DNA of 39,374 nucleotides from a virus, in the UHGV virus genome UHGV-0391889; one strand, given 5' to 3'. A model generated the notes under the pieces. The model ran no database searches, was not told the DNA's origin, and saw only the letters and a list, made by a program, of their open reading frames with translations. Position numbers and translations under genes: made by a program. How positions within the stretch are numbered: the first letter of the stretch is position 1; each line of letters opens with the position of its first letter. This document shows positions 2,515 through 17,312 of the stretch, piece after piece.

Positions 2515-2703
2515 TCACGAGGACAGAAGTTTCTCGCAATTAAAATTTATCAGCTTTACTTTCTGCTCTCTGGACACGCCTGCTTCTTTTTTCCCTGAGA
2601 GCATTTTTTCGCATTCTGATTTCGTTAATTTAGATTTTGAATATCTTGTCCAGTTAGTAGGAGTGCCACCTTCTTTTTCAATAGTGGCAGTTATTTTATA
2701 CAT
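2515..2703 (-). CDS. YdaC-like small protein of unknown function
   Basis: Start at MYKITAT with a GGAGG RBS 5 nt upstream; sits between xis and ralR as in Rac. Confidence 0.5.
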   Translation of the reverse strand: MYKITATIEKEGGTPTNWTRYSKSKLTKSECEKMLSGKKEAGVSREQKVKLINFNCEKLLSS

Positions 2704-14106: not shown

Positions 14107-14597
14107 CCACTTTTACCGACAAAGAACTGATTAAAGAAATCAAAGAGCGCATCAGCAGCCTGGACGTGCGAGACAATATTGAGCGCCGGGCTTATGAGAT
14201 TGCACAGGCATCTCTGGTAGCAGAGCCAGTGGCATATCAGTATCGCCAGTGGGATGCAGAATATGATGAATGGGGAGAATGGGAAGATTGCGGGGAAAGT
14301 GCTTTCGAAAGATTTGTTGAGGAAGAGAAATGCCTGGGGGCAGGTGTTCAGACCCGTAAGCTTTACACCGCCCCTCCAGTGCATCAACCCGGTGGATTTA
14401 CAATTGAGGAAACACAAGAACTTTACGAAGACTTGGTTCGAAGCCACATAAGCCAAGCTTTAAGTGGCGAAAAGATGAAAAAGAAAGATCGCGATGCTGA
14501 TTTACGCTGGATTCATGGCGTTATAGTTCAGGCTGCGTGGTTTGTGAAAGCATCACTGGAAGCGTTGCCTGAACCACCGCAGGAGGTGAATCAATGA
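14103..14597 (+). CDS. Hypothetical protein
   Basis: 164 aa ORF, coupled to the HNH gene; acidic, Trp-rich central region. Confidence 0.55.
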   Translation: MTTFTDKELIKEIKERISSLDVRDNIERRAYEIAQASLVAEPVAYQYRQWDAEYDEWGEWEDCGESAFERFVEEEKCLGAGVQTRKLYTAPPVHQPGGFTIEETQELYEDLVRSHISQALSGEKMKKKDRDADLRWIHGVIVQAAWFVKASLEALPEPPQEVNQ

Positions 14598-14677
14598 CCT
14601 GGCCTGAAGCATTCACAACGGTAGGAATTGCGATGGCGGTGGCGCTGGTGGTGTATTCGATTTTCCGATGGGGATAA
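14594..14677 (+). CDS. Candidate 27-aa hydrophobic peptide
   Basis: MTWPEAFTTVGIAMAVALVVYSIFRWG; AGGAGGTGA RBS 5 nt upstream; ATG overlaps the upstream stop. Confidence 0.35.
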   Translation: MTWPEAFTTVGIAMAVALVVYSIFRWG

Positions 14678-14769
14678 AAACGGTTTGCGGGAAAAGGAGA
14701 GTTAAGTAGAATTGCTGCGGGTGCTTGAGGCTATCTGCCTCGGGCATGAACACCAACGGCAGATAGAGA

Positions 14770-14838
14770 AAAGCCCCAGTTAACATTACGCGTCCGGCAA
14801 GACGCTTAACATTAATCTGAGGCCATATCTATGCGACA
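14770..14838 (-). ncRNA. Candidate Sok-like antisense RNA
   Basis: Minus-strand promoter-like TTGACC (14868-14873) and TAATCT (14844-14849) with 18 nt spacing, facing into the hok leader; minus-strand hairpin then T-run near 14770. Positions approximate. Confidence 0.3.
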
Positions 14839-14890
14839 CATAGAGATTAGCCTCTTACGGACCGAAAGGTCAAGGAGAAGCAGGCTATGA
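14831..14890 (+). CDS. Mok-like leader ORF (19 aa)
   Basis: Short ORF whose stop overlaps the hok start (ATGA). Confidence 0.4.
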   Translation: MRHIEISLLRTERSRRSRL

Positions 14891-15042
14891 AGCAGCAAAA
14901 GGCGATGTTAATCGCCCTGATCGTCATCTGTTTAACCGTCATAGTGACGGCACTGGTAACGAGGAAAGACCTCTGCGAGGTACGAATCCGAACCGGCCAG
15001 ACGGAGGTCGCTGTCTTCACAGCTTACGAACCTGAGGAGTAA
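14887..15042 (+). CDS. hok: Hok/Gef family type I toxin (HokD/RelF-like)
   Basis: 51 aa MKQQKAMLIALIVICLTVIVTALVTRKDLCEVRIRTGQTEVAVFTAYEPEE: N-terminal TM helix and conserved Cys, as recalled for E. coli HokD. Confidence 0.85.
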   Translation: MKQQKAMLIALIVICLTVIVTALVTRKDLCEVRIRTGQTEVAVFTAYEPEE

Positions 15043-15111
15043 GAGACCAGGCGAGGGAGAAATCCCTCGCCACCTCTGATGTGTCAGGCATCCTCAACGC
15101 ACCCGCACTTA

Positions 15112-15132
15112 ACCCGCTTCGGCGGGTTTTTT
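15112..15132 (+). terminator. Rho-independent terminator after hok
   Basis: CCCGC-ttcg-GCGGG followed by TTTTTT; a second hairpin (GGCGAGGGA/TCCCTCGCC, 15046-15070) lies directly after the stop. Confidence 0.6.
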
Positions 15133-15317
15133 GTTGCGCGCTGAATACGCAGGGTGAAAAATAACCATATATTTGATTATATACACAACAAAAAATAAAA
15201 GTCATTGTACCTGCACATTAAACAATCAAATATACGGCGTGAAATAAATATTTTTCAGATTAATATTTTTGTCTCTATGTGGATATAACCGTTTGTACTT
15301 ATAAACCTGGAGGCATC

Positions 15318-15530
15318 GTGGAAAAAATAAAGAAACTATTTAGTAGCAAATATGCAGTCATACGTCGTGATGACCTGTCAGTTATAGTCGAAATGGATTA
15401 CTTCCCTGAAACAAAAAAATCAATGATGTATCGTAATGGTCGAAAGGCAATTTTTTTACCGATGAGGGTAAGTGACATTATGGGAAATGATAAACTGCAG
15501 GATGAATTGCGAGTCAGAGCATCCTGTTAG
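15318..15530 (+). CDS. Hypothetical small protein in an AT-rich island (GTG start)
   Basis: GGAGG RBS 4 nt upstream of a GTG; sits in a markedly AT-rich segment (about 15140-15320). Confidence 0.35.
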   Translation: MEKIKKLFSSKYAVIRRDDLSVIVEMDYFPETKKSMMYRNGRKAIFLPMRVSDIMGNDKLQDELRVRASC

Positions 15531-15545
15531 TATTGGCATTAATTC

Positions 15546-15554
15546 TGGTATACT
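15546..15554 (+). promoter_or_regulatory. Extended -10 element TGGTATACT upstream of the nin-like operon
   Basis: Same TGGTATACT motif as at 7588-7596, about 48 nt upstream of the 15602 start. Confidence 0.3.
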
Positions 15555-15601
15555 ACATAACGGGCTGAACACCCATTCTACTGCGCCAGCGGAGAACTAC
15601 G

Positions 15602-16201: not shown

Positions 16202-16491
16202 TGGTGGATTTACGTAAAGCGGCGCGGGGGCAGATGTGCACCGTCAGAATTCCTGGCTACTGCAATCACAATCCCGAAACTTCTGTGCTGGCGCATTACA
16301 GGCTGGCGGGGACGTGCGGAACAGCGACAAAACCACACGATATGCAGGCAGCGATTGCCTGTAGCTCATGCCACGATTTAATCGACGGGAGAGTAAAAAC
16401 CAGCGATTACACCAAAGAAGAATTACGCCTGATGCATGCAGAAGGTGTTTTTCGCACACAAGAAATCTGGAGAAAGGAGGGATATTTATGA
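16201..16491 (+). CDS. Small Cys/His-rich nin-region protein (DUF1364-like, putative zinc-binding)
   Basis: 96 aa with a C..C...H...C.C...C..CH pattern; coupled to both neighbours. Confidence 0.55.
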   Translation: MVDLRKAARGQMCTVRIPGYCNHNPETSVLAHYRLAGTCGTATKPHDMQAAIACSSCHDLIDGRVKTSDYTKEELRLMHAEGVFRTQEIWRKEGYL

Positions 16492-17042
16492 TTTACCCAA
16501 CGAATACAGGCAAAAGCGGGGAACACCTTCGTCTCACCACGCTGGAAAGTGTCTGGATTCAGGGAAAACTGCGCATGTGGGGGCGCTGGTCGTATATTGG
16601 CGGCGGTAAGACGGGAAATATGTTTAACCAGTTGCTGGCATCCAAAAAATTGACGAAAACAGCCGTCAATGAAGCCCTGCGCAGGATGAAAAAAGCGGGA
16701 ATAGAGAAACCTGAGCTGGAAGCGTTTTTGCGAGAGATGATCAATGGCAAGCAAAAGACCTGGCTGGCGCATTGTACTGATGCAGAGGCGTTATGTATTG
16801 ATAGAGTCATAAGTGAGGTGCTAGCAGAGCATCCTGGATTGATTAGTGTCCTCCGGCAACGGTATGAAGGGAGGGGGATGACTAAGCGAAAAATGGCTGA
16901 ATTGCTGAATGATTCACACCCTGAGTGGTGTTTTCGGACGTGCTGCAGTCGGGTAGATGTATGGCTAAATCTTGCTGAATATATGCTCTATCTACCGATG
17001 CGTGATGCATTCTCTTCCGGGGATCTAAAAACCGTCTGTTGA
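16488..17042 (+). CDS. Q-like late-gene antiterminator
   Basis: 184 aa from MIYPTNTG with an AGGAGGG RBS; last gene before a strong promoter plus terminator and the lysis cassette. Confidence 0.6.
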   Translation: MIYPTNTGKSGEHLRLTTLESVWIQGKLRMWGRWSYIGGGKTGNMFNQLLASKKLTKTAVNEALRRMKKAGIEKPELEAFLREMINGKQKTWLAHCTDAEALCIDRVISEVLAEHPGLISVLRQRYEGRGMTKRKMAELLNDSHPEWCFRTCCSRVDVWLNLAEYMLYLPMRDAFSSGDLKTVC

Positions 17043-17068
17043 CTCAATCTGTTATCCGGGGCTATATT
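17039..17068 (+). promoter_or_regulatory. pR'-like late promoter
   Basis: TTGACT at 17039-17044, 18-nt spacer, TATATT at 17063-17068; overlaps the Q stop codon. Confidence 0.5.
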
Positions 17069-17128
17069 CCTCACGCGCCAGCAAAATCTGGCGTCGGGAT
17101 TGGAACCCCGGATAGAGACCGCGACAGA

Positions 17129-17152
17129 CACACGCCGCGAGCGTGTTTTTTA
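17129..17152 (+). terminator. tR'-like rho-independent terminator
   Basis: ACACGC-cgcga-GCGTGT followed by TTTTTT, about 60 nt downstream of the candidate late promoter. Confidence 0.6.
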
Positions 17153-17312
17153 TTGTCGTATGCACGCGCACATCTGAATTATGGTGGGGCGCATGGGGGA
17201 GCTGAAAAGCTCGCCGGTCGGTTTCCCGGTAGTTCCAACCCTGTGCGTCTCACCACCCGATGATTGGAACCTGACGGTGGTGATAGTTTAGAAACCACCA
17301 GAGGGCGTCATT

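What the first reader, a model, noticed from the sequence alone, without database searches (positions are those of the whole stretch)
14700..15135. hok/mok-type type I toxin-antitoxin locus carried as phage cargo
The locus has a 51-aa Hok-family toxin, a short upstream leader ORF ending in the hok start codon, a 5' inverted repeat in the leader (CTATCTGCC...GGCAGATAG, about 14750-14790), a 3' hairpin plus terminator, and a candidate antisense promoter on the opposite strand. Hok loci in phage genomes can act in post-segregational stabilisation or abortive infection.
Basis: partly seen in the sequence, partly recalled or inferred. Interest (0 to 1): 0.5.

Follow-up and report, generated by a model that had tools for sequence, protein, structure and literature searches.

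The report
Complete hok/mok/sok toxin-antitoxin cassette in prophage
This is an ordinary, well-known kind of small "killer gene plus antisense RNA antidote" cassette (hok/sok, hokD/hokW type) carried by a lambda-like prophage of E. coli; every expected part is present and nothing about it is new.

Summary
Window 14707-15134 holds a complete hok/mok/sok type I toxin-antitoxin locus.

- **Toxin:** the 51-aa ORF (14887-15042) is a Hok/Gef protein. Its DNA is identical to E. coli K-12 hokD (relF).
- **Leader:** it matches the Rfam hok-leader model at 101 bits against a cut-off of 59.
- **Leader ORF:** a 19-codon mok ORF (14831-14890) ends in ATGA on the hok start codon.
- **Antisense RNA:** a roughly 69-nt Sok-like RNA with its own promoter lies on the minus strand (about 14837 to 14769).
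- **RNA switch:** folding reproduces the textbook R1 model. The full-length mRNA pairs its 5' end (tac) with fbi (15093-15106) and hides the mok ribosome site. An mRNA trimmed to the 15050-15071 hairpin switches to tac/ucb pairing. Thirty-four related loci support these helices by covariation.

The locus is about 92.5% identical to hokW/mokW/sokW of phage 933W, whose copy in prophage Sp5 has been shown by experiment to work. A match is found in 4733 of 5426 complete E. coli genomes. The host element is a Rac-like lambdoid prophage.

Minor corrections: the leader inverted repeat is at 14731-14766, not 14750-14790. Verdict: already known, low interest.

The parts
14707..14712 (+). Inferred hok promoter -10 box (TAGAAT), 6 nt upstream of the inferred mRNA start. 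The -35 is weak (TTTGCG, 14684-14689).
   Evidence: Read from the sequence. A TAnnnT-type hexamer sits at the same distance from the conserved GGG start in 22 of the 23 related loci, R1-type TATGAT included (the exception, L049, has GAAAAT), while the sequence further upstream diverges. The generic scan did not call it. Not verified experimentally.
14719..15134 (+). Predicted full-length hok mRNA, about 416 nt.
   Evidence: The 5' end is position 1 of the Rfam RF01794 match and aligns to the start of the R1-type mRNA. The 3' end is the terminator. Fold energy is -174.4 kcal/mol, z = -9.4. The transcription start is uncertain by about 3 nt.
14719..14730 (+). tac element (GGGUGCUUGAGG). It pairs with fbi in the full-length mRNA and with ucb in the truncated mRNA.
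   Evidence: RNAfold; duplex -21.5 kcal/mol; helix 1: 91% of cells paired, 4 pairs with compensatory changes.
14731..14766 (+). 5' leader hairpin. GGCAGATAG.
   Evidence: (I1), and (helix 2: 96% paired, 3 pairs with changes on both sides).
14771..14779 (+). ucb / anti-SD box (AAGCCCCAG). It hides the mok SD in the full-length mRNA and is captured by tac in the truncated mRNA.
   Evidence: Element definitions are from PMC9841398.
14769..14837 (-). Predicted Sok-like antisense RNA, about 69 nt: a mostly single-stranded 5' tail of about 13 nt, a long hairpin, then UUUU.
   Evidence: Coordinates were transferred from the sokW misc_RNA of 933W. Fold energy is -29.2 kcal/mol, z = -4.9. The 5' tail is complementary to the loop and 3' side of the target hairpin. 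Expression was not tested here.
14844..14873 (-). sok promoter: -35 TTGACC (14873-14868), 18-nt spacer, -10 TAATCT (14849-14844).
   Evidence: Read from the sequence. It aligns with the 933W/Sp5 promoter, in which replacing the -10 abolished antitoxin activity (PMC8621323). The -35 TTG overlaps the invariant CAAGGAG hok SD region.
14817..14823 (+). mok ribosome-binding region (CUGAGGC, SD GAGG at 14819-14822).
   Evidence: Paired to ucb in the full-length fold and to dcb in the truncated fold. The hairpin GAGGC...GCCUC is predicted in all 34 related loci.
14831..14890 (+). mok leader ORF: 19 codons (MRHIEISLLRTERSRRSRL), with its UGA stop overlapping the hok AUG (AUGA).
   Evidence: The frame relative to hok varies in the family (56, 57 or 58 nt), which indicates that translation through the region matters and the peptide does not.
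14850..14854 (+). dcb box (GCCUC). It pairs with the mok SD in the truncated mRNA to form the Sok-target hairpin, and it sits within the invariant TTAGCCTCTTAC block.
14887..15042 (+). hok toxin gene: 51 aa, SD AAGGAG at 14872-14877.
   Evidence: The DNA is identical to K-12 hokD over the whole ORF. It differs from HokW at 4 C-terminal residues.
15050..15071 (+). 3' stem-loop (GGCGAGGGA GAAA UCCCUCGCC). This is the expected stop for 3' exonucleases and the 3' end of the active truncated mRNA.
   Evidence: I6; helix 17: 96% paired, 4 pairs with compensatory changes. The role is by analogy with R1 (PMC9841398). Processing was not tested.
15093..15107 (+). fbi element (CCUCAACGCACCC[G]), complementary to the mRNA 5' end.
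   Evidence: and (I3, I5). Homology among family members ends directly after this element.
15111..15134 (+). Intrinsic terminator (AACCCGC TTCG GCGGGTT + TTTTTG).
   Evidence: It is shared with K-12 hokD but not with 933W.

Best explanation
Window 14707-15134 is a complete hok/mok/sok type I toxin-antitoxin cassette of the hokD/hokW subgroup. It sits in the variable region between the replication genes and ninB/Q of a Rac-like lambdoid prophage.

How it most likely works:
1. A weak constitutive promoter makes a stable hok mRNA of about 416 nt.
2. In this full-length form the 5' end (tac) pairs with the 3' fbi element, and the ucb box covers the mok Shine-Dalgarno. The mRNA therefore cannot be translated and cannot bind Sok.
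3. Slow 3' trimming back to the 15050-15071 hairpin removes fbi. The 5' end then pairs with ucb. The mok SD moves into a hairpin with dcb, which is both translatable and the Sok target.
4. The convergent minus-strand promoter makes an unstable Sok RNA of about 69 nt. Its 5' tail pairs with that hairpin, blocks mok translation and leads to cleavage of the duplex.
5. hok is translated only when ribosomes translate the 19-codon mok ORF, which ends on the hok AUG. Loss of Sok therefore releases Hok, a membrane-depolarising peptide.

Shown here: the presence, homology and predicted pairing of all elements. Inferred from R1 and from hokW-sokW: transcription, processing, Sok instability and toxicity.

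The most likely biological role, by analogy with hokW-sokW of prophage Sp5, is membrane damage after prophage induction that helps lysis and phage release. Prophage addiction and exclusion of other phages remain possible.
For: - **Toxin family:** Pfam HOK_GEF 82.9 bits; PHROG 251.
- **Leader RNA:** Rfam RF01794 at 101.3 bits against a cut-off of 59, E = 3.9e-23, over 14719-14889.
- **Fold of the full-length mRNA:** tac/fbi plus ucb/mok-SD pairing, z = -9.4.
- **Structural switch:** moving the 3' end in silico flips the structure to tac/ucb plus mok-SD/dcb at endpoints 15072, 15074 and 15080. This is the R1 model as described in PMC9841398.
- **Covariation on 34 loci from Escherichia, Kluyvera, Photorhabdus, Pantoea, Citrobacter and an R1-type plasmid:** 88.5% of cells are paired, against about 43% with slid partners. 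Forty pairs change on both sides, against 22 in shuffles.
- **tac/fbi duplex:** found in nearly all related loci, with compensatory U-A to C-G and G-C to A-U changes.
- **Antisense RNA:** folds as a 5' tail plus hairpin plus U run, and its promoter is homologous to the experimentally mutated sokW promoter.
- **Close homologues:** the locus is 92.5% identical over 14600-15114 to the annotated hokW/mokW/sokW of 933W. The hok ORF is identical to K-12 hokD, which was toxic in published assays (bioRxiv 10.1101/2025.08.07.668861).
- **Function of hokW-sokW in Sp5:** HokW is toxic and sokW neutralises it. sokW disappears and HokW appears after mitomycin C in a RecA-dependent way, and deletion halves phage release (PMC8621323).
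- **Phage context:**
Against: - No expression data exist for this particular copy.
- The generic promoter scan called neither the hok nor the sok promoter.
- Relative to 933W, this copy has a 2-nt deletion in the Sok-target loop. The loop is 5 nt and lacks a YUNR motif.
- It also has a 1-nt insertion in the sok promoter spacer (18 nt instead of 17).
- Chromosomal hok loci tested in the past did not mediate post-segregational killing (cited).
- A closely related phage carries a disrupted copy, so decay of such cassettes is common.
- The biological role is inferred from one study of a copy that lies elsewhere in its phage genome and in a different transcriptional context.
Confidence: 0.9

Rival explanations
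1. The cassette looks intact but is functionally silent. It would be an evolutionary remnant like the chromosomal hok loci of E. coli K-12, which are not activated and do not kill.
For: [quoted passage not shown] K-12 hokD has lost its entire leader. The related phage vB_EcoS-666R9 has a copy that is split by an insertion and truncated at window position 15007. This copy has indels in the target loop and in the sok promoter spacer.
Against: Every regulatory element is present and pairs as in the R1 model. The hok ORF is uninterrupted and identical to a toxic protein. The same indel variant occurs in other genomes (L002), so it is not a private lesion. The 92.5%-identical Sp5 locus is functional.
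Confidence: 0.12
2. The molecular mechanism is the same, but the selected role is prophage addiction (killing of cells that lose the prophage) or abortive infection against other phages, and not help with the prophage's own lysis.
For: Plasmid hok/sok mediates post-segregational killing and reduces T4 plating (as summarised in PMC8621323). hok genes are about four times enriched in prophages. The same window also carries a second type I system, RalA/RalR, which is typical of cargo that benefits the lysogen.
Against: Neither role has been shown for any prophage hok copy. hok loci are not enriched near defence systems. Deleting hokW-sokW did not change growth of the lysogen, but it delayed growth arrest by about 40 min and halved phage release after induction.
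Confidence: 0.35
3. The plus-strand Rfam matches ('sok' at 14719-14889, isrK-like at 15051-15132) mark independent small-RNA genes on the plus strand, not parts of the hok mRNA.
For: Rfam labels RF01794 as the sok antitoxin, and the match is on the + strand. A weak isrK match covers the 3' UTR (31.2 bits).
Against: The RF01794 consensus ends in the hok AUG and begins at the conserved mRNA 5' end, so it models the sense leader (alignment). The isrK-like match is below the cut-off of 50, and a true isrK (77.5 bits) lies elsewhere, at 17075-17151. BLAST of the 3' UTR finds only hok loci and generic terminators.
Confidence: 0.03

Closest known systems
hokW/mokW/sokW of Shiga-toxin phage 933W and Sakai prophage 5 (AF125520; Takada et al. 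2021, PMC8621323)
   Same: The cassette is homologous over window 14600-15114 at 92.5% identity. It has the same tac, leader hairpin, ucb, Sok hairpin, dcb, hok SD, 3' hairpin and fbi, and the Hok proteins are 47/51 identical. Both are carried by lambdoid prophages. Both share the upstream 27-aa hydrophobic ORF.
   Different: - In 933W the mok ORF is in frame with hok (57 nt, a 70-aa fusion). Here it is a 19-codon ORF that stops on the hok AUG (56 nt).
- This copy has a 2-nt shorter target loop without a YUNR motif.
- The sok -35 is TTGACC with an 18-nt spacer, against TTGCCT with 17 nt in 933W.
- The terminator after fbi is different.
- The cassette lies in the nin region in the sense direction of the early operon. 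In 933W it lies near the right end of the genome on the other strand.
hokD (relF) of the Qin cryptic prophage, E. coli K-12
   Same: The DNA is identical across the hok SD and hok ORF, and almost identical through the 3' hairpin, fbi and terminator (window 14873-15132).
   Different: K-12 retains only that 3' part. The promoter, tac, ucb, mok, Sok RNA and its promoter are replaced by relBE. The window carries the complete form of the locus.
hok/sok (parB) of plasmid R1 and related IncF plasmids
   Same: The architecture and the two-state mRNA folding pathway are the same. The conserved boxes are GCTTGAGGCT, AGCCCC, TAGCCTCTTAC, CAAGGAGAAG and GCTTACGAA.
   Different: HokW, which is 47/51 identical to this Hok, shares only 44% protein identity with R1 Hok. 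The R1 leader hairpin is longer, with a 16-nt insertion. The Sok hairpin here is longer. The replicon is a prophage, not a plasmid, so post-segregational killing of plasmid-free cells is not the obvious role.

Membership tests
hok/sok (Hok/Gef) type I toxin-antitoxin loci | Small hydrophobic Hok/Gef-family toxin ORF of about 50 aa | tested here: met
   Pfam PF01848 at 82.9 bits against a cut-off of 22. PHROG 251, E = 2.8e-33.
hok/sok (Hok/Gef) type I toxin-antitoxin loci | Conserved hok mRNA leader (sequence plus structure) | tested here: met
   Rfam RF01794 full-length match at 101.3 bits against a gathering score of 59.
hok/sok (Hok/Gef) type I toxin-antitoxin loci | Upstream mok reading frame whose translation reaches or overlaps the hok start (translational coupling) | tested here: met
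   A 19-codon ORF at 14831-14890 with an SD (GAGG) 8 nt upstream and an AUGA overlap with hok. Coupling itself is not testable in silico.
hok/sok (Hok/Gef) type I toxin-antitoxin loci | Long-range 5'-3' pairing (tac/fbi) that locks the full-length mRNA | tested here: met
   The minimum-energy fold pairs 14719-14730 with 15093-15106. Duplex energy is -21.5 kcal/mol. Compensatory changes occur across 34 loci (helix 1).
hok/sok (Hok/Gef) type I toxin-antitoxin loci | Alternative pairing after 3' truncation: tac/ucb and mok-SD/dcb | tested here: met
   RNAfold with 3' ends at 15072, 15074 and 15080 gives exactly this switch. The SD/dcb hairpin is predicted in all 34 loci.
hok/sok (Hok/Gef) type I toxin-antitoxin loci | [quoted passage not shown] | tested here: inconclusive
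   Promoter hexamers, a hairpin plus U-tract, and homology to the annotated and experimentally supported sokW are all present (PMC8621323). Transcription of this copy cannot be shown with these tools, and the consensus scan did not call the promoter.
hok/sok (Hok/Gef) type I toxin-antitoxin loci | 3' exonucleolytic processing to an active truncated mRNA, plus differential RNA stability (stable hok mRNA, labile Sok) | not testable with these tools
   The protective hairpin at 15050-15071 is present and covaries. Processing and half-lives need experiments.
hok/sok (Hok/Gef) type I toxin-antitoxin loci | Toxicity of Hok and its neutralisation by Sok | not testable with these tools
   The protein is identical to K-12 HokD, which is reported toxic. 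HokW, 47/51 identical, is toxic and is neutralised by sokW.
isrK Hfq-binding sRNA (RF01394), considered for 15051-15132 | Score at or above the Rfam gathering threshold | tested here: not met
   31.2 bits against 50. A genuine isrK match (77.5 bits) lies at 17075-17151.

The most novel reading that the evidence does not exclude
The cassette may act as a built-in sensor of prophage induction. It lies in the sense orientation of the early operon, and no terminator-like site was found between the upstream genes and the hok promoter. Read-through transcription after induction would run head-on into the convergent sok promoter and silence it. Hok would then be released at a set time to assist lysis. 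Separately, the variant seen here combines a 19-codon mok that stops on the hok AUG with a 5-nt target loop lacking YUNR. It could be a distinct regulatory subtype with slower Sok binding.
Probability: 0.12. Interest if true: 0.35.

Novelty: already known. Interest (0 to 1): 0.08.

Why it matters
It matters little beyond correct annotation. The locus should be labelled as a complete hokD/hokW-type hok/mok/sok cassette, with sok and mok marked; automatic annotation names only hokD. It is a clean example of the intact form of the locus that survives only as a truncated remnant (relF/hokD) in E. coli K-12. Its position in the early operon of a Rac-like prophage differs from the position in Stx phages. 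That could be useful to anyone testing how prophage induction switches Hok on.

Tried and rejected
- **Promoter scan:** the generic sigma-70 scan called neither the hok nor the sok promoter. I located both by homology and by conserved position instead.
- **isrK-like hit:** I considered whether the weak isrK match on the hok 3' UTR meant that isrK derives from a hok 3' end. I rejected this. The score is below the cut-off, a true isrK lies at 17075-17151, and BLAST of the 3' UTR against phages found only hok loci plus generic terminator matches.
- **Missing YUNR motif:** I checked whether its absence from the Sok-target loop marks a defective copy. It does not clearly do so, because the motif is absent from 16 of the 34 related loci.
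- **Short mok ORF:** I checked whether it is a private frameshift. It is not. The same 56-nt arrangement occurs in an O157:H7 prophage and in E. ruysiae and E. whittamii loci, and all three frame relations occur in the family.
- **Failed call:** one count of structure pairs failed on a structure string of the wrong length and was repeated.
- **Not used:** protein database, structure-prediction and metagenome searches were not needed.

Full report
**What is in the sequence**

The region 14700-15135 contains a 51-aa ORF at 14887-15042 on the + strand. It matches Pfam HOK_GEF at 82.9 bits against a cut-off of 22 and PHROG 251 'MokW-like host killing'.

The leader upstream of it (14719-14889) matches the Rfam family RF01794 end to end, at 101.3 bits against a gathering score of 59, E = 3.9e-23. 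Rfam names that family 'sok', but its consensus begins at the conserved mRNA 5' end and finishes with the hok AUG. The match therefore demonstrates the sense-strand hok leader, not the antisense RNA itself.

It runs from ATG 14831 to TGA 14888-14890, is 19 codons long, and its stop overlaps the hok ATG as ATGA. The ORF list missed it only because it is shorter than 20 aa.

It lies at 14731-14739 and 14758-14766, about 20 nt left of the stated position.

The 3' hairpin has perfect 9-bp arms at 15050-15058 and 15063-15071. An intrinsic terminator follows at 15111-15128 plus a T run.

**The RNA switch**

Both elements are present. The minimum-energy fold of the predicted full-length mRNA (14719-15132) pairs the 5' end GGGUGCUUGAGG with CCUCAACGCACCC at 15093-15106. 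In the same fold AAGCCCCAG (ucb, 14771-14779) covers the mok Shine-Dalgarno region CUGAGGC (14817-23). The energy is -174.4 kcal/mol against -123.6 for shuffles, z = -9.4.

I then shortened the 3' end in silico.
- With the end at 15106 or beyond, the tac/fbi plus ucb/SD state is kept.
- With the end at 15072, 15074 or 15080, just past the 15050-15071 hairpin, the fold switches. tac pairs with ucb, and the mok SD pairs with GCCUC (dcb, 14850-14854).

This is the two-state model established for R1 hok, as summarised by Le Rhun et al. 2022 (PMC9841398).

**Comparative support**

A scan of one genome per species with the Hok protein returned 53 loci. Most have the conserved 5' motif and a complementary 3' box about 45 nt after the stop codon. 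Visible compensation includes GGGUGC/GCACCC in Escherichia against GGGCGC/GCGCCC in Photorhabdus, and GAGG/CCUC against GAGA/UCUC in Kluyvera.

I aligned 34 distinct loci, including an R1-type plasmid locus, and projected the window's fold onto the alignment.
- 88.5% of cells form standard pairs, against 40-45% when partners are slid by 1-3 columns.
- 40 pairs change on both sides, against 22.3 ± 2.6 in shuffles.
- The tac/fbi helix is 91% paired, with four compensating pairs.
- The 3' hairpin is 96% paired, with four compensating pairs.

Sequence similarity among the loci stops directly after fbi. It begins at a -10-like hexamer 6 nt upstream of the conserved GGG start; here that hexamer is TAGAAT at 14707-14712, and in the R1 type it is TATGAT. 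These two points mark the edges of the functional unit.

**The antisense RNA**

Phage 933W carries the same cassette, 92.5% identical over window 14600-15114. There it is annotated mokW, hokW and sokW.

Transferring the sokW coordinates through the alignment places a 69-nt RNA on the minus strand from about 14837 to 14769. It folds into a mostly single-stranded 5' tail of about 13 nt, a long hairpin and UUUU, at -29.2 kcal/mol, z = -4.9. This is the architecture known for Sok, whose 5' tail starts pairing at a hairpin loop of the target (PMC4485353).

Its promoter reads TTGACC, 18 nt, TAATCT (14873 to 14844). The homologous -10 in Sp5 (TAACCT) was replaced by Takada et al., which abolished antitoxin activity (PMC8621323). 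Expression of this particular copy is not shown.

**Differences from the closest relatives**

Relative to 933W, the window has a 2-nt deletion just after the mok ATG and a 1-nt insertion before the hok SD.
- mok is a 19-codon ORF that stops on the hok AUG. In 933W it is an in-frame 70-aa extension.
- The target loop is 5 nt and lacks a YUNR motif.
- The sok spacer is 18 nt.

None of these is a private lesion.
- Distances of 56, 57 and 58 nt between the mok and hok ATGs all occur in the family. The 56-nt form recurs in an O157:H7 prophage and in E. ruysiae and E. whittamii.
- 16 of the 34 loops lack YUNR.

The variation in frame implies that translation across the hok start matters and the Mok peptide does not. 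This is consistent with the truncating mok mutations that abolish Hok synthesis in R1.

K-12 hokD (relF) in the Qin prophage is identical across the hok SD and ORF and almost identical through the 3' UTR. It has lost everything upstream of window 14873 to relBE. The window therefore holds the complete version of that locus.

**Context**

The window is a Rac-like lambdoid prophage. It encodes an integrase, a RecE-type exonuclease, a DnaC-like loader, NinB, Q, an endolysin, a large terminase and a portal, and it resembles Rac-type phages. The cassette lies between an Ea22/HNH/unknown-gene block and ninB, on the same strand as the early genes.

A close relative, vB_EcoS-666R9, has the same flanks. 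Its copy is split by a 1.2-kb insertion and truncated at window position 15007. The slot is therefore variable, and cassettes there decay.

A match to the locus occurs in 4733 of 5426 complete E. coli genomes and in 106 phage records. A recent survey reports that hok is about fourfold enriched in prophages (bioRxiv 10.1101/2025.08.07.668861).

**Function**

For hokW-sokW in Sp5, Takada et al. reported the following.
- HokW is toxic and sokW counteracts it, with partial dependence on RNase III and Hfq.
- sokW disappears and HokW appears after mitomycin C, and HokW production is RecA-dependent.
- Deleting the locus delays growth arrest by about 40 min and halves phage release.

By homology, the same molecular mechanism is the best explanation here (confidence about 0.9). 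The biological role is less certain. Help with lysis is the only role with direct evidence in a prophage. Addiction and phage exclusion are shown only for plasmid copies.

**Verdict**

The thing is already known, annotated since 1999 and tested functionally in 2021. Interest is low.

Noticed in passing
window 14594-14677 (+): A 27-aa hydrophobic ORF (MTWPEAFTTVGIAMAVALVVYSIFRWG) has a start codon that overlaps the stop of the upstream 164-aa ORF (ATGA). It belongs to the block shared with 933W and is conserved as a reading frame in several loci. Changes are conservative, and one locus has an in-frame 2-codon deletion. It is not annotated in the records seen. It may be a real small membrane protein that travels with the hok cassette.
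   Followed up: partly
window 2519-2697 (+): A full-length Rfam match to RalA, the antitoxin RNA of the RalR/RalA type I system of the Rac prophage (219 bits against a cut-off of 170). The window therefore carries a second type I toxin-antitoxin system.
   Followed up: no
window 17062-17260 (+): Directly downstream of the Q-like antiterminator gene (16368-17042) lie three Rfam matches above threshold: isrK (17075-17151, 77.5 bits), C4 antisense RNA (17177-17260, 71 bits) and the c4 a1/b1 target (17062-17114, 50.1 bits). This is a P1/P7-type c4-like antisense module combined with an isrK-like RNA next to Q.
   Followed up: no
window 15023-15029 (+), hok codon Tyr47 (TAC 15025-15027): The motif TTACGAA is invariant at the DNA level in all 34 aligned hok loci, R1 type included. 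It contains the TACG context of TadA A-to-I editing, which is reported to recode Tyr to Cys in hokB and at the equivalent of Cys46 in hokC, hokD and hokE (bioRxiv 10.1101/2025.08.07.668861). It also lies in the long-range helix that covers the hok start (helix 8).
   Followed up: partly
window 15135-15600: An AT-rich stretch (GC 0.33-0.36 against about 0.5 in the flanks) follows the hok terminator. It holds a 70-aa ORF (GTG 15318 to 15530, preceded by GGAGG), which corresponds to an annotated hypothetical protein in an O157:H7 prophage. Two promoter-like sites lie on the minus strand. It is probably a separate moron.
   Followed up: no
L058 (Escherichia phage vB_EcoS-666R9) 3166-4705: This closely related phage has a decayed, unannotated copy of the cassette. 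The 27-aa ORF and the hok locus are separated by a 1.2-kb insertion carrying a minus-strand DNA-binding protein gene. The hok ORF is cut off at the equivalent of window 15007.
   Followed up: partly
PP818812.1 (phage record vB_Apl-pPE4): The best phage match to this region (96.7% over 601 nt, and 55% of a 10-kb query) is a record labelled as an Actinobacillus pleuropneumoniae phage. Its content is typical of E. coli Rac-like prophages, so the host assignment looks doubtful. Hok hits on short contigs labelled Acinetobacter and Xanthomonas also look like contamination.
   Followed up: no
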